From Schmidtea polychroa (lineage: Eukaryota): DNA of 60,000 nucleotides. The DNA lies in NCBI GenBank assembly GCA_044892525.1, contig CM097885.1:28646001-28706000 (forward strand), read 5' to 3'. The notes beneath the pieces are model-generated. The model ran no database searches and was not told the DNA's origin. It was given only the letters and a program-made list of their open reading frames with translations. Positions 7,980 to 40,886 of this stretch are shown here, piece after piece. Position numbers and translations under genes: made by a program. The stretch's first letter is position 1. The number at the start of each line of letters is the position of its first letter.

Positions 7980-8881
7980 AGTAGTGTGTATATATACCCA
8001 ACCCAAACAGCCCTCCCAACAAAAACATACCTCCATTACGCTTAAACCATTAGAAAAACAACATTAAACCTATGCTTTTATAGTATTTTAACCCCATATT
8101 TTAAACAACAACCACCCTTAATCTTTAAAGCCTCAAACTCAAAAGCTTCAAACTAAAAAGAGAATAGAAAAAAAAATGAAAAAGCATTATGAAAAAGTTA
8201 GAGGGCTATTTGGGATCAATCAAACTCCGGAGTTGATCTTTATCAGATTATTGATTTTAAATTATATAAATGAAAAAATAAATGAAAAATAGTAAAACTG
8301 CTCTGAGGGGACAGTGGTTTTTTTTTTTTTTTTTTCACTGTCCCCTCAACAGTTTTTTTGATCCGGATCATTTCAACCTCTTTCGTTTATCAAATCTCTT
8401 CTAATATACAAGCTGGCCAGACTCATACATCAGAATCAATCCGATAATAGCAGCACACCTTATTATTCGCTTCTCGCTCGAATACGATTTCATCGGCGTT
8501 TTAAGCGTGCTGCTCGAAAGTACAAATGAATTCGAAAGTGAATCCGAAAGAGGTCCGAAAACAACTGAGAAATAAATGTGCACATTAAAGAATCGATCCG
8601 GGGGTGTTCGAAAGACAGGTGGCGATAATTACCGGTTCGCCACCATCACCCGTTTCAATAATTTTTTTTTCATATTTATGTTTAAAAATAAAATAATTAA
8701 TAAAATAAATAAAATAAATAAAATAAAATAAAATAAAATAAAAATAAATAAAATAAAATATAAATCTAAGATACCCACACTATTATTTTCAAATTTTTAA
8801 AAAAAAAAAAAACTAACCACAGTTAGGATTTGAACCGCTATCCATTTGAACCACGGTGCCGGTCTAGCCCACTGCGCTATC
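7980..8881. repeat. Polinton left terminal inverted repeat (~900 bp)
   Basis: Starts AGTAGT; inner boundary defined by loss of homology with 21547-21910. Confidence 0.85.
8304..8348. other. 13 bp perfect hairpin with oligo-T loop in the TIR (copy at 23366-23412)
   Basis: TGAGGGGACAGTG-G(T)18-CACTGTCCCCTCA, extendable by AAAACTG/CAGTTTT. Confidence 0.85.
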
Positions 8882-8886
8882 GGGCT
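8813..8886 (-). ncRNA. tRNA-like Pol III unit at the inner edge of the left TIR
   Basis: A box TAGCGCAGTGG (8869-8879), B box GGTTCAAATCC (8826-8836), T14 terminator (8799-8812). Confidence 0.7.
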
Positions 8887-8985
8887 TTGGATTTTTGTTA
8901 TTTTTTATACTGTCACATTATGAAAATAAATATAAAAACATAAAAAATCAAAACAGGATATCCAATAAAAAATTTTTTTCTAAAA

Positions 8986-11900
8986 ATGAATTGTAATATT
9001 TGTAATAAAGTTTTTAAAAATAAAACTGGATTAATTTCTCACTTAAAATCGAAAGCTCATTTATTAAAAGAAAATAATCTTAATGACACAAATTCAAAAG
9101 TTTGTCCTAAATGTAAAGGAAGATTTCTACATTCTGGATATAATAAACATTTTGAAAATTGTATCGGGAAAAATAGAGAAATATTTACATGTTCTCACTG
9201 TAACTTTTCAACAAAAGTAAATTTCTATTATTTAGAACATATAAAAGAATGTAAAAATAAAAAACAAAATTCTGACGATGAGGAATGTCATTCAGAAGGA
9301 GAACCTGATCATGTTGAAAGAGAAAAATATAACTGGGATAATTTTAATCATATAGATGAATTTCAATTAAAAATTAATGGACCTGCAACTCCTGGAGAAT
9401 ATATAAATAAAAATAAAAAAAATATTAAAAATTCTTTCACTGAAGCTTTAAAAAATTATAAACCGACAAGGTATAATGTTATAAAATATAAGATTATAAT
9501 CAAAGCAAAATACTGGCGAGGAGCAGAAGAAAAGACAACACCTTTAGATGTTGAAATTGGAATACCCTTTAAATATTTATTTTCAACTAAAGGATTTGAT
9601 AAAACCATCAAAGAAATAATTCAAGCAGTAGAAGCAAAACAAGAAGAGGTTGAAAATGAATTAGGAGATTCAAACTTAGTATTCAACTCTTTCCAAACTT
9701 TAGTGATTGATTATTGGAGAGGATTACCACCTAATCCTAAATCTTATTTTCCTACACCCTTTAAATCTAAAAATGTTATAAACATACAGAATAATGATAA
9801 CAAATGTTTCGTCTGGTCAATACTTGCACATTTACACCCTCAAGAATCAAACCCTCAAAGAGTTTCAAAATACAAACAATATGAAAATGAATTAATATTT
9901 CCCAAAGGATTCAAACATCCAATGAAACTAGAAGACATTCCAAAATTTGAAAGTTTAAATAATCTTAAAATTAATATTTATGAACGTGTTAAAGGGAAAC
10001 ATGTTAATAGCAGAGAAATTATTCTAATTTATTTTTCAGATTATGAAGTTAGAGATAATGAACCCCAGGATAACACTAGGGAGATATATCTTTTAATCTT
10101 GGAACAACAAAATAATCAACATTATGTTTTAATAAAAAACTTTCAAGCTTTTACATCACCAGAGAATCCAACTAGTGGAGGAGGAACATGTAAAAGATGT
10201 CTTCATTATTCAACAACTAAAAACTCTATGATTAAACATACAAGATTTTGTGAAAAAGATGATCCAGCTTTAATTAAAATGCCTAATAATCCCAAGATGT
10301 ATTTTAAAAACTTTTCAAATTTACTACAAACAGTAGGAGTGCTTTATGGGGACTTTGAATCTATAAATCGTAAACAAGATTTGGTTAAACAATATTTAAA
10401 AATAATAGAAAAAAATAAACTCATGGATTCCTGGAACTCCTCAGGAGAGAAGATGAAACCAGAGAGGATGAAAGCCTTTCTAAGAAAAAGGAATAAACCT
10501 AATAGTGTTAAAAAAACTAAACAATTACCATCTGCTTATAAATTATTATTTAAAAGTAATTATCCTGAACTCATAGAATCTAGAGAATATACATTTCGAG
10601 GAATTTCAGAAACAGAAGTCTTGAATCATTTTACTAAAAGTATAAATGATCTTGAACATGAAATATTTAAAGTATTAAAAACAAACTATCCTCAAAATAT
10701 TTCTAATCAACAACAACAAGAATATGAAAACACTTCCAACTGTTGGATGTGTAAACAACCATTTGAAGAGTCTCCGAATATAAAAGTCCTCGATCATGAT
10801 CATTTAAAAAAGGAAAATAATTATCGAGGAGCAGCTCATAAAAATTGTAATCTTAATTGTCATACTCCTAAATTTGTACCTGTTATATTTCATAATCTTT
10901 TTGGTTATGACATACATCTATTTATTAAACATTTAGCAGCAAATGCTAAAAACTCTTTCAAAGTTATAGGACTTACAAAGGAAAAATATAAATCAGTTGA
11001 ATATGGAAAATTAAAATTTATAGACTCGTTAAACTTTCTTCAAATGTCTCTAGATGGAATAGCTAAAACAATGAAACCAGAAGATTTTAAAATCACTCGA
11101 GAATTCTTGGAAAAAAATAATATTCCTCTAGAAGAATATCCTACATGTTTAGCAAAAGGAATATATCCTTATGACTATGTTGACTCGTTTGAAAGATATA
11201 ATGAAACAAGTCTTCCTAGCCAAGAAGATTTCTATTCACAACTTCAAAAAAATCATATTACAAATCAAGAATATTCTCGAGCAAATAAAATGTGGGAATT
11301 ATTCAAGTGTAAAACTTTAGGAGAATATACAAGTATGTATTTATCCTTGGATGTTTATATTCTAGCAGATTGCTTTGAAGAATTTACAAAATCTTTTGTT
11401 CTTAAACCTTACAATTATATAACAGCACCCTCTTTAGCTTGGGATACTTTATTATATACCATTTGGACTTCAAATATAGAAGAAGCTGATAAAATTATAG
11501 ATCTTTTAACTAACCTCGATATGTTTAATCTAATTAAAACAAACATTAGAGGAGGAGTCTCTTCAGTAATGGGGAATAGAGAAATAAAAGCTAGAAATGC
11601 AATAACTACTAGCAGAATGCTTTCAAAGACCTCTGATCCATATATAAAAATTAACAATGAGGAATTAAAAGAAATATTAGAAACAATGAAAAATCCTATA
11701 TTTATACTTTATAGAGATGCAACAGCTTTATATTCAGGAATTATGATTCAATATTTACCAATGGGTGATTTCATTGAAATAGAATCATCAAAAGACCTTA
11801 TAAAAGAAATACTTTCAACATCGAAAGATTCTCCAATAGGTTACTTTGTAGAATGTGACTTATTATATCCAGATGATATAAAATCAGGAACAAGATATTT

Positions 11901-12876
11901 TCCTTTAGCTCCTGTAAGAAGAAAGATTGATATCAACGAACTTTCTGAATGGCAAATCTCACAAGATAAACCCCCAACAATGAAACTTCTTTGTGATCAA
12001 ACAGATCGAAGGTTTTATCTTTGTCACTATAGACTCCTCCAATTTTATCTTTCACGAGGTATGATATTAAAAAAAGTTCATAGTGTCATAAGATTTAAAC
12101 AGAGGCCATTCATGAAAGCTTTTATCGAGGAGAACATTAGATGTCGAAACATTGCAAAAAGAGAAGGTAACCTTTTTAAAGATAATAATTATAAACTTTT
12201 AAACAATTCAGTCTTTGGGAAGACAATGGAAAATGTAGACAAATATACTCATATTGAACTCCTAACAAATACTACCAAAGACATTAAGCGTTATAATCGT
12301 ATGCTAGGAAAGCCTACATTTAAAAACGCACAAGTATTTTCTGAAAGTCTTACTGCAATAGAACTAAAGAATTTTGAGAAAACATACAACAAACCAATAT
12401 TTATAGGGTTTTCAATTTTAGAACTTTCAAAATTACAAATGTATGAAACATATTATAACATCTTACAACCTATATATGGTTCTAATATATCAATGCATGC
12501 AATGGATACAGATTCAATGTTTTTAACAATAAGAACTCATGATTTACAAAGAGATATAGCTGAAAATCCTATACTTTCAAATTTAATAAATTCAACTGGA
12601 GAATTATTTTCATTTAAAGATGAAAAACCTTTTACTCCTATCGAAAATGGAATATTTATTCGTGCTAAACAATATTCATACGAAACATTTAGAAACCCTG
12701 AATTTATAACTAGATCATTTATATTTAAAACTCCAGAAACAGAAGAAACCATTACACATAGATATCCTATATTTCCTAAAGAAGAAAAACCTGTAAAGGA
12801 TAACAGATGTAAAGGAATACAGAGAGTGGTGGCAAAGAATCTTTCTCATCAAGATTATATATATAATTTTTATTAG
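8986..12876 (+). CDS. pPolB: Protein-primed DNA polymerase B polyprotein (Zn fingers, putative TP and vOTU regions, HNH/EndoVII insert), C-terminally truncated
   Basis: YGDFES, FHNLFGYD, KGIYPYDY, IRGGVS, KLLNNSVFGK, DTDS, KDE, KGI motifs; CWMC..DHDH..YRGAAHKNCN; usual terminal DDKR block is missing. Confidence 0.95.
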   Translation: MNCNICNKVFKNKTGLISHLKSKAHLLKENNLNDTNSKVCPKCKGRFLHSGYNKHFENCIGKNREIFTCSHCNFSTKVNFYYLEHIKECKNKKQNSDDEECHSEGEPDHVEREKYNWDNFNHIDEFQLKINGPATPGEYINKNKKNIKNSFTEALKNYKPTRYNVIKYKIIIKAKYWRGAEEKTTPLDVEIGIPFKYLFSTKGFDKTIKEIIQAVEAKQEEVENELGDSNLVFNSFQTLVIDYWRGLPPNPKSYFPTPFKSKNVINIQNNDNKCFVWSILAHLHPQESNPQRVSKYKQYENELIFPKGFKHPMKLEDIPKFESLNNLKINIYERVKGKHVNSREIILIYFSDYEVRDNEPQDNTREIYLLILEQQNNQHYVLIKNFQAFTSPENPTSGGGTCKRCLHYSTTKNSMIKHTRFCEKDDPALIKMPNNPKMYFKNFSNLLQTVGVLYGDFESINRKQDLVKQYLKIIEKNKLMDSWNSSGEKMKPERMKAFLRKRNKPNSVKKTKQLPSAYKLLFKSNYPELIESREYTFRGISETEVLNHFTKSINDLEHEIFKVLKTNYPQNISNQQQQEYENTSNCWMCKQPFEESPNIKVLDHDHLKKENNYRGAAHKNCNLNCHTPKFVPVIFHNLFGYDIHLFIKHLAANAKNSFKVIGLTKEKYKSVEYGKLKFIDSLNFLQMSLDGIAKTMKPEDFKITREFLEKNNIPLEEYPTCLAKGIYPYDYVDSFERYNETSLPSQEDFYSQLQKNHITNQEYSRANKMWELFKCKTLGEYTSMYLSLDVYILADCFEEFTKSFVLKPYNYITAPSLAWDTLLYTIWTSNIEEADKIIDLLTNLDMFNLIKTNIRGGVSSVMGNREIKARNAITTSRMLSKTSDPYIKINNEELKEILETMKNPIFILYRDATALYSGIMIQYLPMGDFIEIESSKDLIKEILSTSKDSPIGYFVECDLLYPDDIKSGTRYFPLAPVRRKIDINELSEWQISQDKPPTMKLLCDQTDRRFYLCHYRLLQFYLSRGMILKKVHSVIRFKQRPFMKAFIEENIRCRNIAKREGNLFKDNNYKLLNNSVFGKTMENVDKYTHIELLTNTTKDIKRYNRMLGKPTFKNAQVFSESLTAIELKNFEKTYNKPIFIGFSILELSKLQMYETYYNILQPIYGSNISMHAMDTDSMFLTIRTHDLQRDIAENPILSNLINSTGELFSFKDEKPFTPIENGIFIRAKQYSYETFRNPEFITRSFIFKTPETEETITHRYPIFPKEEKPVKDNRCKGIQRVVAKNLSHQDYIYNFY

Positions 12877-13063: not shown

Positions 13064-13379
13064 TTATTAATAATTTAAAATGAATCTTCAAACCTGTTTC
13101 AAATGTAAATACATTGAAATCTCTTCTCCATTAAAATCAATCAATTCTCCTTCTTGATTAAGAATTTTAAAATTAATATCCATTATATATTTTCTACATA
13201 AAGGTAAATAATTTGGAGGATTCATTCTTTCAACTATTTTATATCCCATAGGAACTGTGTTTGAGGGAAAGGAATATAAAACATTTGTTTGTTTACCATT
13301 ATTATAAGAACCAGTTATACAATCACAATGAATATTTATTGTGTTTGTATGTATTATTTTTATAATATTTTCTGATGTA

Positions 13380-14845
13380 CAGGGTTTTAAGTTGTATTTT
13401 GACAAGCATAATATATTTTTTGACAATATTAACCAGATAATAAACAATATTAAATCTATTATTGACAATATATACTAAATTAATAACAATAAAAGCTTTA
13501 TTAATGACATTATAAATATATTTTTAGACATTCTATGCATGGCTCGACAAATAAGTCAATTTCCTGCTTCCATAGCAAATAATACAGAAATAGTAGTCGA
13601 AAGTGATAACACTGCCGAACCAGCTATCCGTAACACTTTTCGAGTACAACGAAGAAATAGTACAACTTCAAATGCTGATAGAGATCGTGTTATTACAGCA
13701 TACGATGACGGGACTTCAATAGTTGATATTTCTCGAATTTTATCAATAAAAAGAACTACAATTTATGGTATTTTGAAGAAGTACCATAACACTGGAGTGG
13801 TGGAAGCTGATAAGAGAGGCGGCGATCATCCACAAAAATTGACAGAGGATCAAAAAATCAAGTAAAAGAGTGGGTTGATAATAACTGCCAATTATCGTTG
13901 AAAGTTTTAGCGGAAAAGGTATTTACAGAGTTTCAAATTAGAATATCCACAACTTATGTATATAATTTATTATCTCGTTTTCATTATTCAATGAAAAGAC
14001 TTCATTTAATTCCAGAGAGAAGAAATTCAACAGAAGTAATTGAAACAAGAAAAGAATATGCACTTAAATTCTCTTCTATACTAAGTATATATTCAGAACA
14101 AGAATTAATATTTATTGATGAGGTGGGATTCAACGTTTCTATGAGAACAACAAGAGGAAGATCACAAATAGGCACTCCTGCAACATTAAATGTACCGACC
14201 ATACGATCAAGAAATATATCTATAGCATGTGCAATGAACAAAAATGGGTTATTGTTTTATAAATCTTTTAATCGGGCCCTCAATAAAGAGAAGTTTATCG
14301 AATATATAACAGAGCTAAAAGAAGTTTTAATTGATAAAGAGATTCACAGATGCGTATTCATAATGGATAATGTTAAGTTCCATAAAAGTCCTGAAGTGCT
14401 TAGCGCTATAAATAATGAAAATACAACTGTAAAATTTCTTCCGCCGTACTCCCCTTTTCTCAATCCTATTGAGAACATGTTCAGCAAATGGAAGGAAATC
14501 ACCAAAAGAACCAACCCCAGAAATGAAGATGATCTTATGCGAGCAATTGAAAATGGAAGTACCCTAATATCTTCACAAGACTGTAGTAATTATGTGCGAA
14601 ATATGTGGTCATATATACCAAGATGTATTGAGGGAGAAATTATTCTTAATTAAATGTCACTTAATTTTTTTGTCATTACATTTTTTGTAATATATTACAT
14701 TAATATATGTATTATTGTCATTAATATTATTTAAATTGGCATTTATTTTATTAATATTGTCATTAATGTATTTAACATTGTCAAAGATTATATTAAAATA
14801 TTCAAAAAATATGTTATGTTTGTCATAATACGACTTGAAACCCTG
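13380..14845 (+). mobile_element. Tc1/IS630-superfamily transposon (DD34E)
   Basis: TA duplications at 13378-79 and 14846-47; ~45 bp imperfect TIRs starting CAGGGTTT; TGACAAT subterminal repeats. Confidence 0.93.
13539..14653 (+). CDS. DD34E transposase split by a one-base frameshift in an A6 run (~13855)
   Basis: HTH N-terminal ORF 13539-13865; FIDEVG, MDNVKFH, LPPYSPFLNPIE in ORF 13898-14653. Confidence 0.88.
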
Positions 14846-15313
14846 TAACTTCAGGTGTGGTATAATGGTTTTGTGTAAATCCTAAAATTGTTCTAAAGAA
14901 ACTATTATTTTGAAAATGAATTCCTATATTCTCTAAAGTCATTATACATTTTGAAGTTGGTAAATCCATTTTAATTTTAATGACTCCATTTGTTTTTTTA
15001 GAAAGTATATTATTTAAATCTTTTATCTCATAAGCCCCAGGATCGATTGTTATTATAATCTTATCTGTAGCTTTTGGGCTTATATAATAAAATATGTTAT
15101 TATCTTTAGTTATATTAAAAATAGTATTATAAGCACAAAACCATAATAGACCTAATTCATAATTTAAATCTTGATCTAATTTAATTGAATCTTGAAAGTT
15201 TATAGTAAAGTCTGATTCTTTTGAATTTATAGATAAAGTTCTTGAATATTTATCTGACATTATGTTTACCATTTTTTTTAAATTATCTTCTGGAGGGTTG
15301 CGAAGCTCCATTT

Positions 15314-15775
15314 TTATAGTAGAGATTTTAAATCATTATAAATTTCTTGGATTAAGGAAGTGAAACCTTCTCCTTTGGATTTATTCAATCTATACAAAAC
15401 ATATAAGCTTAAAATACCACATATTTTAGTATTATTAGGTTGAACTTGTAAAGAATTAAAAGTGTAGTCCGAGAGATAGTCTTCAACTTCTTTAGTGGGT
15501 TTAATCCCAAAAGAATCAAAGTATATAGATTTATTATATATACAAACCCAATGAGATCCTTTCTCATTTGAATTTTGATAATTTATAATAATATTCAGGG
15601 GACTTCGTTTCTTTTGAGTGTCTTCTTTCAGAATATCTTTCAGACTTGATAATTCATCATTCATTAATATTTTTATTTTTAAATTTAAATAATTTGCATA
15701 ATCTTTTAAATCAAAATTTGTTTTTGCATTTATTCCAAATGTTTTTAAAAAATCTAATATTGAAGGATTAGTCAT
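15314..15775 (-). CDS. Adenain-like cysteine maturation protease
   Basis: GSHWVC, YFDSFG, QVQ..KICG catalytic motifs. Confidence 0.9.
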   Translation of the reverse strand: MTNPSILDFLKTFGINAKTNFDLKDYANYLNLKIKILMNDELSSLKDILKEDTQKKRSPLNIIINYQNSNEKGSHWVCIYNKSIYFDSFGIKPTKEVEDYLSDYTFNSLQVQPNNTKICGILSLYVLYRLNKSKGEGFTSLIQEIYNDLKSLL

Positions 15776-17294: not shown

Positions 17295-18087
17295 ATGGAT
17301 ATTTGGAAACCAATTTTAAATAGACATAAATCTAAATTTAATAATAAAGTATTTCCTGATAATTTTAGATTATTAATTGTTGGTTCTTCTGGATGTGGAA
17401 AGAATGTACTTGTTTTGAAAATGTTGCTTGAAGATGGTTTTTTAGATTATAATAATTTAATCTTTTACTCTACAACCATAAATCAACCAGAATTACAACT
17501 TTTGAAATGTGGATTTGAAAATAAATTAACTAAAAAAGCAATAATTGATATTTTTAAAAACCAACATAGATGTCCTGAAGACGTTTTTCAACCTTGTGAT
17601 ATGGTTGATTGGTATAAGGAAAAGATTTTAGAATCAGATATTAGTAATAAAAATGATTATATTTGTGAAGATCAGGGGCAGGAGGCAATTCAAGTTTTAT
17701 TCTCTAATAAACCTGAAGATGTTTTACATTGTGATTTACTTCCTAAAGATAAAAAGAATCTAGTTATATTTGATGATGTTGTCAACATGAAAAATCAAGA
17801 GATTCAAAAGAGTTACTTTACACGAGGTCGACATAATAATTGTAATGTTATTTATATCTCAAACTTATTATGCTTTAGATAAAAACTCTATAAGAAATAA
17901 TTCTAATTGTTTTATATTTTTTAAATTAGATCGCCGTGATAAGAATATGATTTATAATGATTTATTTTCAAATGTTGAACCTGATAAGAATATGTTTGAT
18001 ATGTTTGTTGATAATCATTGGAAAGAAAAATATAATTATATTTATTTGGATAGAGAAGAAGCTGAAATATGGAAAAGTTTGTTTTAG
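17295..18087 (+). pseudogene. A32/FtsK-like packaging ATPase, frameshifted near 17860
   Basis: GSSGCGKN (Walker A), LVIFDD, FTRGRH, and ISQ..SIRNNS continuing in the second frame. Confidence 0.88.
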
Positions 18088-19463
18088 AAATCTGTTTTCT
18101 GTAACTCATTATTATAAAATCTACCTAATATTTTTTCATTATTTAAATCAATGATGCTATATGTTATTGGGGTTGTATAATGTATTTTATTTATAATAAA
18201 AATTTCATTTGTCCATTTTGCTGTGAATCCTTTTTCAAATTTATTTTTATATTTAAATATTCTTACTCGGTCACCAATTTTAAACTTTGGTTTTTCAATA
18301 ACATCATTTTCAATATTTACCACTTTAATGGTTTCAGGATTCATGGAAGCATTTAAAGGTGTTGATTTTATAGAACTATGTACATCATTATTATATTCAT
18401 TTACAATCTTTTGTAACAATTCATTGTTCCATTTTTGTTTTCCAATAGCAGTAAAATATTTCCACACTTTATTTTTTAATGTTCTATTTAATCTTTCAAC
18501 TACGACTGCTTTTCCTTCGTTTTCTGTTGAATATAATTTAATATCATTTTCATTTAAAAACTTTGTAAAAACTTTGTTATAAAATTCTGTTCCTTTATCA
18601 CACCATAAATATTTTGGAATTCTTTGATGTTCTTCAAATATATTTTCAAATGCTTCTGTAATGGAATATCTTGTTTTATTTTCTAAACACCTTGCAAAGG
18701 CAAATCTTGTATATAAATCTATTACAGTTAAAATTATTTTATATTTTTCAGGGTCTGATGATTTGGTTGGCATAAAGACTTAATCTGCAGACCATGTTTG
18801 ATCTTTTTCATGTACTTGAACTTTTAAATATTTTTTATTTTTTCTAAATTCATGGTGTAATTCGTTGGCATATTTTATTTGTGATTCTGTTGGGGTTAAT
18901 AAGCTAGTCTTGGATATATTCTCGAGGGATCTTTCAGCATCTGCTTGTTCAATAATCTTTTTATTAGCATAATCTTTTGCCATCCTTGGTAAACTAGCAC
19001 CTATGAAAATCTTACCTTTCATTGCTAATTTAACTAGAGCTCTTTGAATCTTTTCTTGGGTTGATGGATTTTGGATACTATTTAAATCATGTATTAAATT
19101 CACATCTGCAACATGTCTATCTCTAAGATTTGTTGAATTGTATGCAATGTCATGTTTTAAAGCTGCTTGATCAATTCTATTTATTGGTTCTTCTCTTTGT
19201 TTGGGATTATTATTTTCATCTAATCTAATATCTAATCTTGTTCCTGGTCCGGTATAGTTGTGTTTAAATAAATGTCTTTCACCTGGATATTTTTCTGTAG
19301 TAAAAGGTTTTAATATTGAAGATGTTGTTTTTGAAGATTGTAGGTCGCCTCCGGCTCGTGGAATCATGTCGCCTCCTATATGTTTTTTAGTTTTTAGATG
19401 ACTTGCTTTATGATGTCTTGTAACTTGACAATTACAAGTTTCACATCTCCAATAGAGAGACAT
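18084..19463 (-). pseudogene. Zn finger-PLA2X-rve integrase fusion with one in-frame stop
   Basis: ORFs 18780-19463 and 18084-18773 are in frame (WSAD*VFMP); YTGPGT..DQAALKHDIAY; IDLYTR, CDKGTEF, VERLNRTLK. Confidence 0.88.
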
Positions 19464-19480: not shown

Positions 19481-20767
19481 TTAAGAATCTCCCCTAACAT
19501 TTTCGATTATTGAAATCTTTCCACCATATAATTTCATTTCTATTTTCTTTTCTTCTAATATTAATGTATATACTTTAGCTTTAAAATTAGAATCCTTTGT
19601 TACATGAAGTGTAATATCAACATTATTTATGGCTAGGCGATCATCTTGGTCTGAAACATTTATACAAAATATAGAATATAAATTTTTGAAATCTTCTAAA
19701 CTTAATTGCGGTTCAACTTTGAAATCATAACATGTTTCAATATAATTTAGATATGGGAATATGTTTTCATTATTTTCAATATTAAATTCCATTCTATTTA
19801 TTGGATAATAAGAACTATTTAATTGAATTTGGATTGTTTTTAAATTATCAACTCCAATCTTTTGAATAAACAAGTTGTTATTTTTTTGGAAAGATGAATC
19901 TACTTCTTTGAATCCAATCAAGATATATCTTGGTCGGTATGCTAAATTTGCTACCTTTATAGAATATGTTGAACCCTCTGTCATACTAAATTCACTACAG
20001 ATTCTATTTAAATAATTTACATTTATAGACTTGTTGGAATTTAATCTTTCAAGGAGTTTGATTTCAGAATGTGGATTTAATGTCCATTCAGGTATATGCA
20101 ATTCAAGTGTTGATATTTTTAATTTAGCTGTTGTATCCTTATCTCCATAGAACAATCTTTTATCACCTTCTACTCTATTACAAACTAATTCTATAAAAAC
20201 ATTATGAAGTATACGATTATAGTTTTGAAGGAATCCAAACAAGTGTTTTAATTCAAAATAACCTTCAAATTTTTTAGATTTATAAAGTTCAGCTCTTTTA
20301 TAGTAACCATAATTTATATCTAAACCATCTTTATCTAAATCTCCTTTATTAACATCAGGAATCCAGCCTGTTAATTCACCATATTCATTTTTATAATCAC
20401 AACCAGTCAAAATAAAATTTAACATTGTAGAATATACTCCCGGATGCAAAACAGTTTCAATTTCTGATGATCCTAGTTTTAATCTCATGTTGGAGAATAA
20501 ATTTGGAAAGAAATTATTTTCTAGGGTTATATCTTTGTTTGCTTCAATTTCTAATTCGATTTTATAATATAATTTGGCATTACAAATATCTATAGGGTTT
20601 GATGTTTGAAGAGATTGAAAAACTATATCACCCCTACGATTTAAGTTTGCAATAGATCCTGAAGTTGGGGAGATTTTAAGTACATCGTTTTTCTTGATTT
20701 CATGAGTAAATTCTTTATTATAATCAAGATTTAATTTATTTTTTTCTTGAATTTTTATATTATTCAT
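19481..20767 (-). CDS. Major capsid protein (double jelly-roll, hexon-like)
   Basis: 428 aa; LENNFFPNLFS..IE, LFGFL, PRYILIGF, FKNLYSIFCINVS blocks; gene context. Confidence 0.85.
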   Translation of the reverse strand: MNNIKIQEKNKLNLDYNKEFTHEIKKNDVLKISPTSGSIANLNRRGDIVFQSLQTSNPIDICNAKLYYKIELEIEANKDITLENNFFPNLFSNMRLKLGSSEIETVLHPGVYSTMLNFILTGCDYKNEYGELTGWIPDVNKGDLDKDGLDINYGYYKRAELYKSKKFEGYFELKHLFGFLQNYNRILHNVFIELVCNRVEGDKRLFYGDKDTTAKLKISTLELHIPEWTLNPHSEIKLLERLNSNKSINVNYLNRICSEFSMTEGSTYSIKVANLAYRPRYILIGFKEVDSSFQKNNNLFIQKIGVDNLKTIQIQLNSSYYPINRMEFNIENNENIFPYLNYIETCYDFKVEPQLSLEDFKNLYSIFCINVSDQDDRLAINNVDITLHVTKDSNFKAKVYTLILEEKKIEMKLYGGKISIIENVRGDS

Positions 20768-20822
20768 TTTTATATATTAAAATTTACACACACAAAATAG
20801 GATTAATTAAATATATTATGTA

Positions 20823-20897
20823 AGCCATTATAGCGGAGTGGGAATAGGCTTCAATTTTATCACCGGGAGTACCGGGTTTAATTTTCGATTTTGGTCA
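20823..20897 (+). ncRNA. Degenerate tRNA-like Pol III unit
   Basis: A box TAGCGGAGTGG, decayed B box GGTTTAATTTT, ends GGTCA then T-run; downstream flank homologous to that of the 21059 unit. Confidence 0.4.
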
Positions 20898-21058
20898 ATT
20901 TTTTTCGATATTTTTTTTTCAACGGAATCTGATTCAGCGTACTGATTTTAGTATATATTTAAATTTTCAGATGGATCTGAGTGGTAGTTGTCGAGAAAAT
21001 GAATAATTAATTATTAATTTCATCAATAAATAGTCACACATTAACAACTTATTTTATA

Positions 21059-21131
21059 TTGAGTATAGCTTAGTGGTAATAGCACTCGACTGCATTGCCA
21101 ATACTAATGGGTTCAAATCCCATTTCGGTCA
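21059..21131 (+). ncRNA. tRNA-Cys(GCA)-derived Pol III unit
   Basis: GTATAGCTTAGTGGTAATAGCACTCGACTGCA resembles the tRNA-Cys 5' half; perfect T arm ATGGG-TTCAAAT-CCCAT; T8 terminator; acceptor and anticodon stems do not pair. Confidence 0.72.
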
Positions 21132-21294
21132 TTTTTTTTCAAATCTTTTTAACGAAATATTGATCAGCATACTCGATTTAGTACTTGTACAAATTTTTAA
21201 GGTGATTGGTCAACGGCAACTCTTGGAAATTTAAGATCAAAAACGTTTTAACTACCAAAAATTAATATATCCAATAAAAAAAATATTTATAAAA

Positions 21295-21564
21295 ATGGAT
21301 GAGTTAAAAGAAAGAATGAGAAATGAATTGAATGAAGTTAAACATAAGAGAATGAAAAGAAGAGAAGAAGAACCATTAGAATACATCAAAGAGTTGATGG
21401 TAGATAATGAAAAGTATCGACATTTTTATATGAAGGCTGTAGATGTTGCTGATATAAGATTGAAGAAAATGAAACAATTACAGGAAAGAGTTAAAGAACT
21501 TGAATCGATTATTTATAGTCTAAAAAATGACAAAAATTCAAACCTTGATGGCTCAGTGGGCTAG
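21295..21564 (+). CDS. Small coiled-coil hypothetical Polinton protein
   Basis: 89 aa ORF sharing the upstream motif ATATCCAATAAAAAA..TAAAAATG with pPolB. Confidence 0.6.
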   Translation: MDELKERMRNELNEVKHKRMKRREEEPLEYIKELMVDNEKYRHFYMKAVDVADIRLKKMKQLQERVKELESIIYSLKNDKNSNLDGSVG

Positions 21565-21615
21565 ACCGGCACCGTGGTTCAAATGGATAGCGGTTCAAAT
21601 CCTAACTGTGGTTAG
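21541..21615 (+). ncRNA. tRNA-like Pol III unit at the inner edge of the original right TIR
   Basis: A box TGGCTCAGTGG (21549-59), B box GGTTCAAATCC (21592-602), T9 terminator. Confidence 0.7.
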
Positions 21616-21910
21616 TTTTTTTTTCAACATAAAATAATATTAAAAATTTGAAAATAATAGTGTGGGTATCTTAGATTTATATTTTATTTTATTTATTTTT
21701 ATTTTATTTTATTTTATTTTATTTATTTTATTTATTTTATTTATTTTATTTATTTTATTTATTTTATTTATTTTATTTATTTTTTAAACATAAATATGAA
21801 AAAAAAAATATTGAAACGGGTGATGGTGGCGAACCGGTAATTATCGCCACCTGTCTTTCGAACACCCCCGGATCGATCCCGGTAATGTGCACATTTATTT
21901 CTCAGTTGTT
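21547..21910. repeat. Surviving inner part of the original right TIR
   Basis: Reverse complement of 8560-8881 with small indels. Confidence 0.9.
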
Positions 21911-22723
21911 ATCATTATTCTGTATGTTTATAACATTTTTAGATTTAGAGGGTGTAGGAATATAAGATTTAGGATTAGGTGGTAATCCTCTCCAATAATC
22001 AATCACTAAAGTTTGGAAAGAGTTGAATACTAAGTTTGAATCTCCTAATTCATTTTCAACCTCTTCTTGTTTTGCTTCTACTGCTTGAATTATTTCTTTG
22101 ATGGTTTTATCAAATCCTTTAGTTGAAAATAAATATTTAAAGGGTATTCCAATTTCAACATCTAAAGGTGTTGTCTTTTCTTCTGCTCCTCGCCAGTATT
22201 TTGCTTTGATTATAATCTTATATTTTATAACATTATACCTTGTCGGTTTATAATTTTTTAAAGCTTCAGTGAAAGAATTTTTAATATTTTTTTTATTTTT
22301 ATTTATATATTCTCCAGGAGTTGCAGGTCCATTAATTTTTAATTGAAATTCATCTATATGATTAAAATTATCCCAGTTATATTTTTCTCTTTCAACATGA
22401 TCAGGTTCTCCTTCTGAATGACATTCCTCATCGTCAGAATTTTGTTTTTTATTTTTACATTCTTTTATATGTTCTAAATAATAGAAATTTACTTTTGTTG
22501 AAAAGTTACAGTGAGAACATGTAAATATTTCTCTATTTTTCCCGATACAATTTTCAAAATGTTTATTATATCCAGAATGTAGAAATCTTCCTTTACATTT
22601 AGGACAAACTTTTGAATTTGTGTCATTAAGATTATTTTCTTTTAATAAATGAGCTTTCGATTTTAAGTGAGAAATTAATCCAGTTTTATTTTTAAAAACT
22701 TTATTACAAATATTACAATTCAT
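21902..22723 (-). CDS. Duplicated N-terminal 273 aa of pPolB
   Basis: Identical to the pPolB N-terminus except two substitutions near the junction and the last residue. Confidence 0.85.
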   Translation of the reverse strand: MNCNICNKVFKNKTGLISHLKSKAHLLKENNLNDTNSKVCPKCKGRFLHSGYNKHFENCIGKNREIFTCSHCNFSTKVNFYYLEHIKECKNKKQNSDDEECHSEGEPDHVEREKYNWDNFNHIDEFQLKINGPATPGEYINKNKKNIKNSFTEALKNYKPTRYNVIKYKIIIKAKYWRGAEEKTTPLDVEIGIPFKYLFSTKGFDKTIKEIIQAVEAKQEEVENELGDSNLVFNSFQTLVIDYWRGLPPNPKSYIPTPSKSKNVINIQNNDNN

Positions 22724-22822
22724 TTTTAGAAAAAAATTTTTTATTGGATATCCTGTTTTGATTTTTTATGTTTTTATATTTATTTTCATAATGTGACAGT
22801 ATAAAAAATAACAAAAATCCAA

Positions 22823-22896
22823 AGCCCGATAGCGCAGTGGGCTAGACCGGCACCGTGGTTCAAATGGATAGCGGTTCAAATCCTAACTGTGGTTAG
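22823..22896 (+). ncRNA. Duplicate of the left-TIR tRNA-like Pol III unit
   Basis: A box 22830-22840, B box 22873-22883, T-run from 22897. Confidence 0.7.
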
Positions 22897-23736
22897 TTTT
22901 TTTTTTTTTTAAAAATTTGAAAATAATAGTGTGGGTATCTTAGATTTATATTTTATTTTATTTATTTTTATTTTATTTTATTTTATTTTATTTTATTTAT
23001 TTTATTTATTTTATTAATTATTTTATTTTTAAACATAAATATGAAAAAAAAATTATTGAAACGGGTGATGGTGGCGAACCGGTAATTATCGCCACCTGTC
23101 TTTCGAACACCCCCGGATCGATTCTTTAATGTGCACATTTATTTCTCAGTTGTTTTCGGACCTCTTTCGGATTCACTTTCGAATTCATTTGTACTTTCGA
23201 GCAGCACGCTTAAAACGCCGATGAAATCGTATTCGAGCGAGAAGCGAATAATAAGGTGTGCTGCTATTATCGGATTGATTCTGATGTATGAGTCTGGCCA
23301 GCTTGTATATTAGAAGAGATTTGATAAACGAAAGAGGTTGAAATGATCCGGATCAAAAAAACTGTTGAGGGGACAGTGAAAAAAAAAAAAAAAAAAAACC
23401 ACTGTCCCCTCAGAGCAGTTTTACTATTTTTCATTTATTTTTTCATTTATATAATTTAAAATCAATAATCTGATAAAGATCAACTCCGGAGTTTGATTGA
23501 TCCCAAATAGCCCTCTAACTTTTTCATAATGCTTTTTCATTTTTTTTTCTATTCTCTTTTTAGTTTGAAGCTTTTGAGTTTGAGGCTTTAAAGATTAAGG
23601 GTGGTTGTTGTTTAAAATATGGGGTTAAAATACTATAAAAGCATAGGTTTAATGTTGTTTTTCTAATGGTTTAAGCGTAATGGAGGTATGTTTTTGTTGG
23701 GAGGGCTGTTTGGGTTGGGTATATATACACACTACT

Positions 23737-25659
23737 TTGGATGACATTGTGATTTATTCGAATAGTAAAGAAAAACATTATACAATACTCAGTGAAGTAT
23801 TAAAAGCGATCGATGAAGCAGGTCTAAAGATTAACCCAGAAAAGTGTCAAATAATAAAGAAAAAAATCAGATTCTTAGGTACAAATAATCAGTTAAGAAG
23901 GAGTAAAAACCGATCCTTCTAAGATTCAGGCTATACAAAATTTTGGGAAGCCAAGTTGCGTAAAGAAACTTCGAAGCTTTCTAGGCATTTGTAATTATTA
24001 TAGAAGATTCATCAGTGAGTATGCAAAGAAATCAAGGATGTTAGAACAATTATGTAGCGGTCCGATTAAAATAAAACTGGAATGGACTGAAGGAACGAAT
24101 AATGTATTGAAGGAATGAAGTTAGCATTCACAACGGCACCGATTCTATGCTTTCCGGATCTGAGAAAGGAGTTCATTTTAGATACTGATGCCAGTTTTGA
24201 TACCATTGGGGCAGTGCTTTCGCAAAGAGATAAAGATGAAAAGGAGAAAGTAATTGCGTATGGATCACACTCGATGACGAGCCATGAAAAAGGATATTGC
24301 ATTACAAGGAAGGAACTATTGGCGGTATACTATTTTTGTATTCATTTTAAGCACTATCTCTACGGAAGAAGATTCACGCTAAGGACAGACCACAAGGCGA
24401 TCACGTTTATGATGACAACCAAGAAGCTAATTACTTCACAATTCCAAACCTGAATAAATTATTTGAGCAGTTTGGATATAATCGTTGAATATAGAAAGGG
24501 TGTTAATCACCAAAATGCAGACATGGTGTCCAGAACTAAATGTGAAACGTGTGTTCAATGTCAAATGGCTCACGAAGAAGCTAAGAAAGGAAAGATAAAA
24601 ACTAGATTACTAGACTCGATCAGAGAAGAAGGTAGAAGCACCAATCAACAAATAAATTTGGAAGAAGAATTACGAAAGAGAACGATGATACATGAAATCG
24701 AGATACAAGAAACCATAAAGGAAATACATAGTCTATTGTGTCATGCTGGAGTCGAGAAGATAGCTGATTATATGCAAGATAGATATATTGGGAAAAACCT
24801 GTGGAGTCAGATTCAGGAAACTATTCAAAGTTGTGAGACTTGTCAAAAAACCAAGGCTATAACAAATACAACGAAGAAACCAGTAAAAAAATTAGAATCA
24901 ACCGAAATGTTCGAAATTATATTCGTGGATATATGTGGACCAATGCAAGAAACAAAAGGACGTAAGAAGTATATATTGGGTATAATAGACCAGTATAGTA
25001 AGTATCAAGTCCTGACAGCTATAACAAGACAAGACGAAGAAACAATAAAATAAACGATTTTAGAAAAATGGATTTTAAGATTCGGGTGCCCAAAGGAGAT
25101 AAAAGTTGATTGTGGGAAGGCGTTTGAATCAGGAATGTTGAGAGAATTCACAAAGAAACTTGATATTAAGTTATGTTTTTCGAGTCCATACCATCACCAA
25201 ACAAATAGACAGATAGAATGGCAATTCAGGACAATACGAAAGCGGATAAATGCTTCTTTACGATTCAGAAGGATGACGGATTGGGCAGAGATACTACCAG
25301 AAGTCGAATTTACATTAAATGCAACCAAACAAAAAACGACAGGAATAAGCCCGGCAGAGATAGTTTTTGGAAAAAAGATTAGCAGGGAGAAATGGTACGG
25401 GTCAAAAGAAAAACAAGTAAAGGAAGAACAAGAAGAACAAACAAGAAGGAAATTTGACGTAGGAGATGATGTGTTAGTAAAATTAGAAACACGCAACAAA
25501 AGCCAGGACAGATATGAGGGACCATATAAAGTAATCGAGAAAGTGCATGACAGACGATATATCTTAAGAAACGAGAATGGTAAAAAGATTGAAAGAAACG
25601 TGGAAAAACTTAAAAAATTTCTTAAGGAGGGGGATATGAGGAAGTTAAAAGATTCTTAA
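23737..25659 (+). pseudogene. pol: Gypsy pol 3' half (RT C-terminal part, RNase H, integrase), duplicated copy
   Basis: LDDIVIYS; FILDTDAS..GAVLSQ..ELLAV..TDHKA; integrase and GPY; same stops as the left copy. Confidence 0.92.
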
Positions 25660-25893
25660 AGATTAATTAGAAATTTGGTAAAAATTTTAAATATATTTTT
25701 ATTGAAAAATATTTTAAAAAGAAGAAAGAAAATTTATCAATTTTAAGAAATATCTTTATTAAAGAAATATTTTAAGAAAATCTTAAATTTGTTTAAATAA
25801 CAAAAATAAGATCAGACAAGTTTTTTGAGATATCTTTTATTAAATAAAATTTATGGAATTATTTAGTGATTTAAAAAAGGATGAGAATCCTAA
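25637..25893 (+). repeat. Gypsy 3' LTR copy, preceded by PPT (25624-25634)
   Basis: AAGGAGGGGGA-TA-TGAGGA...TCCTAA. Confidence 0.85.
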
Positions 25894-26730
25894 TAATTTG
25901 TATGCGCTATAATTGAGACTTATCATGTTATTTCTTGCCTTAATGAGAAAAATGTATTGTTTGTCTGTTAGGGTATGTGATTTGATTAGATGTGCTAATT
26001 GTCTGTTTGCACCTATTGTTCTTGATATGTATCCTTGACATGTCATCCGGTACCACTAGTCCTCATACCATTCGCTTGTGAGTTCATGTATTTTTGCAGA
26101 AGTTTCTGTGAGGTTCGTTTCGTTAATGTATATAGTGTAATCTTTTGTCTTTAAGAGTAGTATGTATTTGTTATTTTCTAGTGTAAGTGTGATTTTGATG
26201 CCAAATCTTTCATTTATTCTTTTGATGGCAGATCTAAATTTGCCAAATATTGTTGCTGGGCCGCTTGTGTCGCCTTTAATGTCTGCATTTATCCATCTAA
26301 ATGTGTGGTTTATATCTATTGGTGTGTTTAAATCTGATTTTAGCTAATGCTATCATTTGTTTAATTATGAATTCCCTCATTCTTATGTCTCGTGAGTGTA
26401 GTATTTTAATGAGGTGTGTGATGCCTTGTATCATGTATTCATCAATGCTTAGCACTATGACCAGCATATACCACACTATACCCGTTGAGCAATCAATGTT
26501 GGTACTGTATCGAATGGGTGAGTACTTGCGAAAAGCGAGCGTACCTTTGTACAATATAATATGCAAGCACTCAAGCGGGTTCGCGGACTGCCGTTAGAAG
26601 GCCTTTGTCCGACTTTAATTTAGGTCCCTTAGTTCTATAATCTAACGACTGGAAAACCAGTGACCTTCACTAAAAACCTTTTTATTCATTACGCCATACT
26701 GCGAGTTAACCATTACGCTGAGGAAGTACC
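25894..26730 (-). mobile_element. Remnant of an R2/NeSL-like non-LTR retrotransposon flanking the Gypsy LTR
   Basis: QGITHLIKILHSRD and QG..FLIKARNNMISLN resemble post-RT regions of RLE-type LINEs; partial copy at 5817-6055. Confidence 0.45.
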
Positions 26731-28281
26731 TATATCCAAATGCTTCTTGTAATTCTACTCCTCCAACCACCTCTGGTGTCACTTTCTCCACCACAATGAA
26801 TCTAACTTCCTTAGAAATATCTCCGATAGTTACTTTAACCTTTGTTCTTCCAATTGTCTCTATCGTACTTTCGTTTGCACATCGTAACTTATCGTCGCTT
26901 CTCATCAATTGTTGTCCTCGTAACTTGTTAAAACAGTTTACACTCATTACGTTTATTCGTTCTCCGGTGTCTAATAAACAGTCGAAAATTTCCCCATTCA
27001 TCATTACTGTTACACTAGGTCTTCCCTGTAGCTTGTTATATACAATTTCTACCTCCTGTCCAGTTTCAATTGTTCCAATTCTTTCCACTTCCTCTTCAAA
27101 CCTTTCTCTCCTTAGGAACCTGTATACTTTCTCACTTACCCTTCCTACATTCTCCCACTTTTCTACCCCTTGAGGATATCCCGTCCACTTTTCTGTTAGT
27201 ATATGGCTCCAACCAACTCTTCTACTGGTGGAGCCCTGTTGTTTGGGTACGTCCTACTAAAATTATCTTCATTTGTCTCTACGCACGATTCCATTTCCTC
27301 TTCTTCTTCGATTCCAATTATCCGGCTGTATCTGTTTCCTGTCGATCTTTGTTTCTCTATCGATTTCTTGTAACTCGACTTTGTATAACATTCTTCTGAT
27401 CTATGACCATTTTTGTTGCATCTTTTACACCGTATTTCTTGACATAACCTTCTTATATGGCTTTCTTTCCCACAACCAAAACATCTTGGCACTTTTTTAT
27501 CTGGACAATTCCTACTGATATGTCCGCTTCTGTGACATGTCCATCACTCTATCTTACTTCTTACTGGACATTCTATTTTTGTGTGGCCTATTTTGTGGCA
27601 TAGCCAGCACTCTGGTTCGTCTCGTCGCCTGACTTCTTCTCTTTCATCTTTTTGCTTGTACTGTCCTCTTCTCTGTGGATCCTGATAGACCACTCTTGCA
27701 TAACTTTTCAAAGCGTTGATATGATCTCTCTGCCTGTCCACTTTATCCATCAGAATTATTGTTTCCTTTATCTCCTCTGTGCTTTTTATCTTCCGCAATT
27801 TTACTTCTTTCTCAACTTCTTTATTCTCAGCACATACTATCAACATCTTTGCTGTTATTTTCTCTTTGGCGAATTCTTTATTCTCAAACAACCTGTCAAC
27901 AAGGTCCTCCAATTTTTTAAAATATGTTTCAATCTCTTCGCCTCTTCTTTTATAATTCAATAAACTTTCCATATCCTTTATTACGTCTCTTTCGTAATCA
28001 AATGCCATTCGTAACCTGGCTTGAAATCCTTCTGCCTTTTTAACTGTTTTTGCATATTTCTCCAATAGATCCTCGTCGATCATGCATGCGATCGATCTTT
28101 CTTGTTCTTTTTTATTGATGCCTTTAGCATCGAAATAGATCTCGGATCTTCTGATGAATTTTTCCAAGTCATCACCTTGACAGAACACTTTTGGCAACAG
28201 TCTTTCGGTAATCGCGTCGGTGTTTACCGCTGCCACCATATTAGGATTTTCATCCGTTTTTAAATCACTAAATAATTCCAT
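26730..28281 (-). pseudogene. gag: Gypsy gag (four CCHC knuckles) and aspartic protease
   Basis: CWLCHKIGHTKIEC, *WTCHRSGHISRNC, CFGCGKESHIRRLC, CKRCNKNGHRSEEC; protease LLDTG. Confidence 0.88.
28226..28238 (-). promoter_or_regulatory. Primer-binding site, tRNA-Leu
   Basis: TGGTGGCAGCGGT, 2 nt after the LTR end, complementary to the tRNA-Leu 3' end ACCGCUGCCACCA. Confidence 0.8.
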
Positions 28282-28449
28282 AAATTTTATTTAATAAAAG
28301 ATATCTCAAAAAACTTGTTTGTTCTTATTTATGTTATTTAAACAAATTTCAGATTTTCTTAAAATATTTCTTTGCTAAAAATATTTTTTTAAATTGATAA
28401 ATTTCTTCTTTTTAAAATATTTTTCAATAAAAATATATTTAAAATTTTT
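28241..28449 (-). repeat. Gypsy 5' LTR, outer end lost at the ATT tract
   Basis: Homologous to 6056-6269 with about 11 substitutions and a 5 nt indel. Confidence 0.85.
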
Positions 28450-33293: not shown

Positions 33294-34244
33294 CAGACCC
33301 GATTCTAGCAGTGTTTTGTGTGTAGATGAGATGCAAATTTGTCGCCGCAATACATTTTAAGTTGGTGATAATTAGAAAAACACTGAAAATCTAAACTTAA
33401 TATATTTTTATTTTATTAGGAAAAACATACAACAAAGCAAATAAAAAATTTCAGTTAATACAAAAAAAAAGAAATATAGATATTATAGAGTCGAAGAAAA
33501 AACATTAAAAAAAAGTTTTACAAGTGCATAACAAAAAAAACTGAAAATATTTTCGACTATAAGATAGTCCTTGTAGATTGACAAGGAGATTGACAAGGGC
33601 TATCTTATAGTCGAAAATGTTTTCATTAAATACATTATTCGCAGCAAAAGGCTTAAATTATCACTTTATTGTTTTAAATAATAAATGCTGCTACCAAGAA
33701 ATCATCACTTTATAATATTAATATTATGATAAACTTGTACTGAATATTTCTATTTTTGTTATGCAATTGTAAAACTTTTTTTTAATGTTTTTTCTTCGAC
33801 TCTTTAAACAAAAATGAAATATGTTTATCACACTTCTATTACAATATATTTATGTGAAAAAAATAGTTGTAAAGTTTCCAAAAATGACACCGCTACCTAA
33901 GCAAAAAACTTGGTTGTTTCAAAAAAATGCATATTAAGAAAAAAATATCTGAATAAAATTCCTTTGTTACTAATTTACATGAATAAAAACATGTATTGAT
34001 AATATTTTTTTTTAAAAAAATTAGGGAATTTCAATTTCAAGAATATACGACCTGAATAAGTGGATAACATTATATACCAAATCCATAACTTTAAATAATA
34101 CTAATGGTTCAGGACTCGCAAAATCTAAACATAAATTGGAAAATTTTTTAAAAAGCCTTTAATTTTTCCGGTTAAAACAAAAATAATTAAGAAAGTACCA
34201 ACCTAGAAAAGTGCTGACGTCGCCTACACTTAGAACCGGGCCTG
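33294..34244. mobile_element. Non-autonomous hAT-like element with nested foldback sequences
   Basis: TIR CAGACCCGATTCTAG / rc CAGGCCCGGTTCTAA; degenerate 8 bp TSD TGATCATT/AGATAATT; internal inverted repeats ~33487-33803. Confidence 0.55.
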
Positions 34245-40761: not shown

Positions 40762-40833
40762 GGTTCTTGTTTGATATTTCCCCCCCCTTAAAATTAAATT
40801 AAAATTAAATATATAAATAATATATAAATAATC

Positions 40834-40886
<53 letters not shown>

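What the first reader, a model, noticed from the sequence alone, without database searches (positions are those of the whole stretch)
21541..21560. A box stays consensus-perfect where TIR identity ends
Left and right TIR copies are identical through the B box and unit body but diverge inside the A box (TAGCGCAGTGG versus TGGCTCAGTGG). Both differences fall at degenerate consensus positions. Both 5' ends can still partly pair with the 3' GGTT. This suggests selection on promoter function. Both units are transcribed outward, toward the genome ends, so they could act as boundaries or aid origin opening.
Basis: partly seen in the sequence, partly recalled or inferred. Interest (0 to 1): 0.7.

Follow-up and report, generated by a model that had tools for sequence, protein, structure and literature searches.

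The report
Polinton repeat edge keeps tRNA promoter
A virus-like jumping element carries a worn-down tRNA-gene look-alike at the inner edge of both end repeats, whose RNA polymerase III signals are intact and likely kept by selection across the family, but the two left-right differences that were flagged are one common variant and one change that appears private to this copy, so they do not themselves show that selection.

Summary
The letters are as reported: the left (8879, -) and right (21549, +) A boxes of a Polinton/Maverick differ at positions 2 and 5, both degenerate, followed by 71 identical bases. But the repeat does not end there: homology runs 32 bases further in (26 of 32 identical), and left-right identity also breaks at four outer places. 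Two tolerated changes have P = 0.1-0.18 by chance. Family contigs show that position 5 is private to this right end (99-99.9% of depth has the left letter) and position 2 is polymorphic (31% and 65%); right ends with a left-type A box exist. Family-wide, 0 of 12 invariant box positions vary against 15 of 63 others (P = 0.054; about 0.15 after linkage), and the tRNA fold is lost, so selection on the promoter is likely but unproven. Outward direction follows from the inverted repeat; the unit terminates about 820 bases from the end, so origin opening is unsupported. A barrier or roadblock role is plausible, untested. This scan has already noted these Pol III units in other copies of the family in this genome.

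The parts
21549..21559 (+). A box of unit 1, right TIR (the flagged feature); position 2 polymorphic in the family, position 5 private to this end
8869..8879 (-). A box of unit 1, left TIR; 107 bases upstream of the pPolB start codon, divergent
21541..21624 (+). Unit 1, right: tRNA-sized type-2 Pol III-like unit (A box, 33-base gap, B box 21592-21602, T9 run); tRNA fold lost; inner B-box-like 16-base tandem copy at 21574-21589
8799..8887 (-). Unit 1, left, with T14 run
21517..21548 (+). Diverged inner fringe of the TIR (26 of 32 identical to 8911-8880); true inner edge of homology at about 21517-21521
   Evidence: loose ends and joints at 21517-21522 in family contigs
21517..21913 (+). Surviving inner 397 bases of the right TIR; cut at 21913 by an inverted duplicate
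7980..8911 (+). Left TIR (about 930 bases, outer part inferred because the right partner is lost), beginning with the (AGT)2 end motif
   Evidence: motif in PMC8097293 passages
21827..21880 (+). Unit 2 (A box 21827, B box 21870-21880); left and right copies differ at B-box positions 9 and 11, again degenerate
8288..8654 (-). Unit 2-headed 367-base stretch that folds strongly on the outward strand (z -9.05 against -4.43 on the other strand); candidate structured RNA, expression untested
21295..21564 (+). 89-codon ORF whose last codons run through the fringe and the right A box (stop 21562-21564); 6 of 8 listed family variants at third codon positions; shares a 27-of-31 upstream motif with pPolB; no known family
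21061..21131 (+). tRNA-like unit outside the TIR (Rfam tRNA 27 bits, below gathering 29; GCA in the anticodon position)
20831..20890 (+). Further unit with strict A box; B box broken at 20879 in this copy
8986..12876 (+). Protein-primed DNA polymerase B (PF03175)
18084..18773 (-). rve integrase (PF00665)
19481..20767 (-). Double jelly-roll major capsid protein (PF21738)
17295..18087 (+). Packaging ATPase (PF04665 on the first piece), apparently in two frames
21903..26135 (+). Inverted duplicate of 5814-9806 (99.6-99.8%), holding a second copy of the left TIR (A box 22830); not an independent TIR

Best explanation
The flagged A box belongs to a tRNA-like unit that sits 32 bases inside the inner edge of a Polinton's terminal inverted repeats; the two left-right differences are likely just the ragged fringe of end-to-end copy correction (one family polymorphism, one change that appears private to this copy), while the family likely keeps the A and B boxes, but not the RNA fold, because a bound RNA polymerase III complex would act on the DNA there. 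Shown: anatomy, fringe, allele shares, loss of fold. Inferred: the two ends are homogenised during strand-displacement replication (panhandle or recombination; recalled from adenovirus biology), and correction thins out inward, where the left end must serve the pPolB upstream region and the right end the tail of an 89-codon gene. Inferred: TFIIIC/TFIIIB/Pol III occupancy keeps chromatin open beside the pPolB promoter (107 bases away) and separates the coding core from the TIR and host flank, as tDNA barriers and roadblocks do in yeasts.
For: Fringe 26 of 32 identical, then 10 of 32; five perfect runs, not one edge. Left and right share the same allele at all seven common polymorphic body sites (21567, 21573, 21591, 21602, 21603, 21605, 21609; other allele 12-65% in X1), as expected from homogenisation within a lineage. 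21553 private, 21550 polymorphic; contigs that reach into right-specific sequence carry the left-type A box (X7 record 24; X15 record 9). 0 of 12 invariant box positions vary against 15 of 63 others, all 17 variant rows shown (P = 0.054). Fold not kept: z 0.31 and -0.29, T stem 2 of 5 pairs, no ARAGORN or Rfam match for unit 1, and variants at 21602-21605 break the 3' hairpin predicted. Unit 2's left-right B-box differences are also at degenerate sites (4 of 4 in both units, P = 0.036 strict, 0.11 loose). Precedent: intact A box and full Pol III complex needed for the S. pombe cen1 barrier (PMC2040200, passages); TFIIIB blocks Pol II and Pol delta (PMC5052057, passages); planarian Polintons are under PIWI/H3K9me3 control (PMC8532177, passages; that the host is a planarian comes from earlier notes and was not tested here).
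Against: The family test is weak: P about 0.15 after merging linked changes, 0.12-0.25 with the loose consensus, 0.29 for whole boxes. Units were found by their boxes (ascertainment). Contig depth is no copy number, and left-type contigs seem mostly clipped or unlaid (left alleles at 21529, 21538, 21546 are not listed). No occupancy or transcript was shown. A constant roadblock at the right end would stop Pol II before the 89-codon gene's stop codon, which lies inside the unit. The right end lacks the TATAAA found 30 bases before the left A box.
Confidence: 0.5

Rival explanations
1. Unit 1 is a gene for a roughly 75-85-base Pol III transcript that acts in trans with little sequence constraint (decoy for La, Dicer or PIWI pathways, like gammaherpesvirus vtRNAs or adenovirus VA RNA); boxes and T run are kept to make it.
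For: A box, B box and a long T run 13 bases after the B box are all kept; a vtRNA alone is functional in MHV68 (PMC4337559, passages); the neighbouring unit heads a strongly folding stretch.
Against: No stable fold; spacer and tail vary at about a quarter of sites without compensation.
Confidence: 0.2
2. A vestigial captured tRNA gene: boxes survive by ascertainment and by hitch-hiking in a homogenised TIR, with no present function.
For: Family test not significant; the two units outside the TIR are skipped in some family contigs (joint 20778-21258 in X5 and X12); a neighbouring B box is broken in this copy.
Against: Stems have decayed so far that unit 1 is not recognised as tRNA while all 12 invariant box letters remain in units 1, 2 and the 21061 unit.
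Confidence: 0.18
3. The bound Pol III complex itself sets the inner TIR edge: it blocks the polymerase or branch migration that copies one end onto the other, so correction fades at the A box and start site.
For: Identity fades exactly over the A-box 5' half and the 32 bases where start site and TFIIIB edge would lie (start 17-19 bases before the A box, TFIIIB 10-40 bases further; Pol delta blocked in both directions; PMC5052057, passages); family contigs change partner at 21517-21522.
Against: Identity also breaks at four places unrelated to an A box; different gene neighbours left and right explain the fringe; the edge may simply be the end of the captured cassette; pPolB strand displacement is not Pol delta.
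Confidence: 0.1
4. Outward Pol III transcription helps to open the terminal replication origin.
For: Both units point outward.
Against: Outward direction follows from the inverted repeat; unit 1 ends in T9/T14 824 bases from the terminus; protein-primed initiation uses the terminal end motif (PMC8097293, passages).
Confidence: 0.02

Closest known systems
tDNA chromatin barrier of S. pombe cen1 (PMC2040200, passages) and TFIIIB roadblocks of S. cerevisiae (PMC5052057, passages)
   Same: Type-2 Pol III promoter with intact A and B boxes at a domain edge, inside an inverted repeat; function would rest on the bound complex, not the RNA.
   Different: Here the unit is a degenerate non-tRNA carried by a mobile element; no occupancy or barrier activity shown; right copy overlaps a coding tail.
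MHV68 TMERs/vtRNAs (PMC4337559, passages) and adenovirus VA RNAs (PMC9863843, passage)
   Same: Cluster of co-oriented tRNA-like Pol III units near a genome end of a dsDNA virus-like element, interspersed with a protein gene.
   Different: Unit 1 has no tRNA fold and no downstream hairpin within its predicted transcript; it lies in the terminal repeats; only the unit 2 stretch folds strongly.
tRNA genes of Polinton-like viruses and MELD viruses (PMC12220804 and PMC8502044, passages)
   Same: tRNA-derived sequence in a Polinton-type genome.
   Different: Those are ARAGORN/Rfam-detectable tRNAs read as codon compensation; unit 1 is detected by neither.
Maverick/Polinton imperfect TIRs (PMC8097293, PMC10748475, passages)
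   Same: TIR length in range, (AGT)2 end, perfect and imperfect repeats both occur.
   Different: Those papers hold no mention of tRNA (0 occurrences in each; polymerase III 0 in PMC8097293).

Membership tests
Maverick/Polinton (adintovirus-like) | Protein-primed PolB and rve integrase | tested here: met
   PF03175 and PF00665
Maverick/Polinton (adintovirus-like) | Double jelly-roll capsid protein and packaging ATPase | tested here: met
   PF21738; PF04665 on the first of two ATPase pieces
Maverick/Polinton (adintovirus-like) | Adenovirus-like cysteine protease | tested here: inconclusive
   ORF 15314-15775 has no Pfam match at E 0.01; protease identity is a recalled resemblance
Maverick/Polinton (adintovirus-like) | TIR of 100-1500 bases with (AGT)2 end motif | tested here: met
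   397 bases comparable; motif at 7980; definition
Maverick/Polinton (adintovirus-like) | 6-base target site duplication | not testable with these tools
   right terminus is lost at 21913
Type-2 Pol III promoter unit | A box TRGYnnAnnnG and B box GWTCRAnnC about 35 bases apart | tested here: met
   gap 33; consensus and spacing PMC4333407
Type-2 Pol III promoter unit | Run of four or more T downstream | tested here: met
   T9 right, T14 left
Type-2 Pol III promoter unit | TFIIIC/Pol III occupancy and a Pol III transcript | not testable with these tools
   no ChIP data; only contigs could be laid
tRNA gene | Cloverleaf recognised by ARAGORN or Rfam RF00005 | tested here: not met
   T stem 2 of 5, acceptor pairs at probability 0.001 or less
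TMER / VA-type structured viral RNA | Stable, conserved secondary structure in the transcript | tested here: not met
   unit 1 z 0.31 and -0.29; the separate unit 2 stretch folds at z -9.05
tDNA chromatin barrier | Intact A and B boxes | tested here: met
tDNA chromatin barrier | Blocks spread of silent chromatin when bound by the full Pol III complex | not testable with these tools
   definition from PMC2040200

The most novel reading that the evidence does not exclude
Polintons use a host RNA polymerase III complex as a built-in fence post: bound at the inner edge of each terminal repeat, it shields the integrated element's polymerase promoter from host silencing and also stops end-to-end copy correction, so that the promoter fixes where the terminal repeat ends.
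Probability: 0.12. Interest if true: 0.75.

Novelty: new variant of a known kind. Interest (0 to 1): 0.36.

Why it matters
The flagged two-base pattern is ordinary. The cassette it belongs to is less so: I found no paper describing degenerate Pol III promoter units in Polinton terminal repeats (searches; listings only, open-access library only). If the boxes are kept for binding, a self-synthesising transposon would carry its own tDNA-type insulator, which bears on how such elements stay active under piRNA silencing and on what sets the length of their terminal repeats. A very high-copy family offers thousands of paired ends for a direct statistical test.

Tried and rejected
No whole genome was held, so paired ends of other copies could not be collected. 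No relatives in viral contigs by capsid protein, alignment or a 24-base pattern or in genome contigs. 18 metagenome loci with distant capsid relatives (31-52% identity, 47,456 bases) hold 0 A+B units (0.37 expected) and no tRNA match; uninformative, since most are short and the one mapped (L002, 1 of 18) has another gene order and no visible end. Expression: no RNA holder listed; of two runs guessed to be RNA, X15 had 9 contigs over the unit, some running past its ends, X18 none; no evidence either way. In one search, 51 of 91 variant rows were hidden, so it was not used for box statistics. The copy at 22830 was rejected as a right TIR: it is a duplicate of the left end. The 89-codon ORF has no Pfam match and only unnamed look-alikes. 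Spacers of the three best units are not clearly related to each other (shuffle P 0.04-0.35). Earlier-findings look-ups near the window and by sequence returned nothing. Earlier notes that the two inner units come from the host rDNA spacer could not be tested. No supplementary files were read.

Full report
Setting. The finding lies in a Maverick/Polinton (adintovirus-like) element: pPolB 8986-12876, ATPase from 17295, rve integrase 18084-18773, a PLA2-like gene 18780-19463 and a double jelly-roll capsid gene 19481-20767. Its left end begins at 7980 with (AGT)2, the commonest Maverick end motif (PMC8097293, passages), and interrupts the reverse transcriptase of a Gypsy-type element. The copy is damaged: a Tc1/IS630-type element sits at 13378-14847, the ATPase is in two frames, and the right TIR is cut at 21913, where a 4.2-kb inverted duplicate of 5814-9806 takes over. 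Only the inner 397 bases of the two TIRs can be compared. Earlier notes of this scan call the host a flatworm; I did not test that.

Observation. The right A box (21549-21559, +) and the left (8879-8869, -) differ at positions 2 and 5 and are followed by 71 identical bases. Both positions are degenerate in TRGYnnAnnnG (PMC4333407, passages). The units are real sequence features: strict-A plus B-box pairs occur 4 times (21066, 21549, 8879 and its duplicate 22830) against 0.005 expected in 200 shuffles, loose pairs 7 times against 0.58; the stricter A-box pattern is recalled. But the repeat does not end in the box. The 32 bases inward of it are 26 of 32 identical, the next 32 only 10 of 32, so the edge of homology is at about 21517. 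Perfect identity is also broken further out, leaving five runs of 71, 100, 27, 69 and 28 bases. Two tolerated changes out of two have P = 0.10-0.18. The 5'-3' pairing is an acceptor-stem remnant in tRNA register (5 of 7 and 4 of 7 pairs) with pair probabilities of at most 0.001; neither copy folds better than shuffles.

Family variation. Contigs of public runs were laid on the region (6 of the 24 runs listed). Depth there is no copy number, and left-specific fringe alleles were not listed, so the shares describe mainly right-type ends. At 21553, 99.9% (X1) and 99% (X5) of depth carries the left copy's letter: the right letter appears private to this end. At 21550 both purines are common (31% and 65%); clipped left-type contigs could add to this, but X7 record 24 (21395-21576) and X15 record 9 (21505-21576) reach into right-specific sequence and carry the left-type letters at both sites. 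The left-right difference in the A box is therefore not a fixed feature of the family. This copy has another near-private change at an invariant B-box position of the unit at 20831 (20879, 98-100%), which shows that its private changes are not filtered by the consensus. Loose ends and joints cluster at 21517-21522, agreeing with the edge found from the window.

One search listed all 17 variant rows at 1% or more in 21505-21640; 15 lie in the 75-base unit (two, 21539 and 21540, lie just before it and were left out). None falls on the 12 invariant box positions, 15 on the other 63 (P = 0.054; about 0.15 if linked changes are merged into 10 events; 0.12-0.25 with the nine invariant letters of the published loose consensus; 0.29 for both whole boxes). 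The three box variants are at A2, A5 and the last B-box letter. The body that is identical between left and right is not invariant in the family (seven sites with the other allele at 12-65% in X1), so left-right identity reflects homogenisation within a lineage, not constraint. Unit 2 gives a second left-right case, with differences at B-box positions 9 and 11; all 4 of 4 box differences in the two units are at degenerate sites (P = 0.036 strict, 0.11 loose). The qualitative argument is stronger than these numbers: unit 1 is no longer recognised as a tRNA (T stem 2 of 5) yet keeps every invariant box letter, tRNA-like spacing and a long T run; against this, the units were found by their boxes.

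Why the fringe diverges. On the right, the fringe and A box are read as the last codons of an 89-codon ORF (stop at 21562-21564) that looks like a real gene: 6 of 8 listed variants in 21299-21482 are at third positions (P = 0.02; 4 of the 8 synonymous; rows are the best-supported 40 of 91) and it shares a 27-of-31 upstream motif with pPolB. On the left the same stretch is the pPolB upstream region, with a plus-strand TATAAA at 8931, 20 bases beyond the fringe. The two ends thus have different neighbours exactly where identity fades. End-to-end correction through a panhandle or recombination during strand-displacement replication is recalled from adenovirus biology; one search showed only a reference title on panhandle replication.

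Mechanism. Most likely (0.5) the boxes are kept for binding of TFIIIC, TFIIIB and Pol III, acting in cis beside the pPolB promoter and between coding core and repeat; precedents are the S. pombe cen1 tDNA barrier, which needs an intact A box and the full complex and is independent of orientation (PMC2040200, passages), and TFIIIB roadblocks to Pol II and Pol delta (PMC5052057, passages). A difficulty is that a constant roadblock on the right would stop Pol II before the small gene's stop codon; interference of a Pol III-bound repeat with an overlapping Pol II gene is known (PMC5358760, start of abstract in listing). Rivals: a short trans-acting RNA like the MHV68 vtRNAs (0.2; PMC4337559, passages); a vestige (0.18); the complex setting the TIR edge (0.1); origin opening (0.02), disfavoured because unit 1 ends in its own T run 824 bases from the terminus. 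The strongly folding stretch in the TIR belongs to unit 2 (367 bases, z -9.05 on the outward strand, -4.43 on the other), a lead taken from earlier notes and checked here for folding only. Nothing here shows occupancy or transcription.

Comparison with what is known. tRNA genes occur in Polinton-like and MELD viruses (PMC12220804, PMC8502044, passages), but as recognisable tRNAs. Searches for Pol III units in Polintons gave 5 general reviews, 75 papers of which 25 were listed and one, without the word Polinton, had 'B box', 47 papers of which the 20 listed had no 'Pol III' or 'VA RNA', and 9 general papers; these were seen as listings only, and subscription literature and Repbase were not searched. 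PMC8097293 and PMC10748475 (passages) do not mention tRNA. Within this scan the cassette has been noted repeatedly on other copies in the same genome, with the same split between a docking-site and a VA-like reading; those are unchecked notes and not support.

Verdict. Observation partly confirmed; interpretation partly supported. The flagged pattern is the ragged inner fringe of a homogenised repeat plus one private change, and carries little evidence by itself. The Pol III cassette at the inner TIR edge is a new variant of known kinds (viral tRNA-like units, tDNA barriers), with suggestive but not significant family-level support for selection on its boxes. Interest 0.36.

Noticed in passing
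window 21903-26135 versus 5814-9806: 4.2-kb inverted duplicate of the left flank and left end replaces the outer right TIR, joined at a short shared stretch near 21903-21913; the duplicate holds about 230 bases of Gypsy RNase H that the left arm lacks, so it was not copied from the left arm as it now stands (real rearrangement or haplotype mis-join).
   Followed up: partly
window 7974-7985: The Polinton interrupts the Gypsy reverse transcriptase right at its xLDD catalytic motif; Gypsy LTRs at 6054-6269 and 28239-28449.
   Followed up: partly
window 21574-21605: A 16-base tandem duplication (11 of 16 identical) puts a second B-box-like word in the anticodon-arm position of unit 1; its first eight letters show no variant at 1% in family contigs.
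   Followed up: partly
window 8958-8988 and 21267-21297: pPolB and the 89-codon ORF share a 27-of-31 motif directly before their start codons, a candidate common promoter or initiator.
   Followed up: no
window 20778-21258 and 20771-21521: Some family contigs skip the two inner tRNA-like units, others skip them together with the 89-codon ORF and rejoin at the TIR edge: the region between capsid gene and TIR is modular.
   Followed up: no
window 8290-8360: Long hairpin with an A-run loop at the 3' end of the unit 2-headed stretch, followed by a T4 run; weak miRNA-precursor matches below threshold.
   Followed up: partly
window 13378-14847: Tc1/IS630-type transposon with inverted ends inserted in the element, apparently splitting the gene at 14823-15311.
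   Followed up: no
L002 5436-5515: A distant Polinton relative carries a long intergenic hairpin (Rfam mir-754 model, 48.6 bits, below gathering 84) between a 205-codon ORF and the protease-like gene; no A or B box nearby.
   Followed up: partly
window 38217-38404, 40759-41209, 42000-42177, 33542-33700: Several palindromic, MITE-like repeats outside the Polinton; hAT-type remnants at 46702-48557.
   Followed up: no
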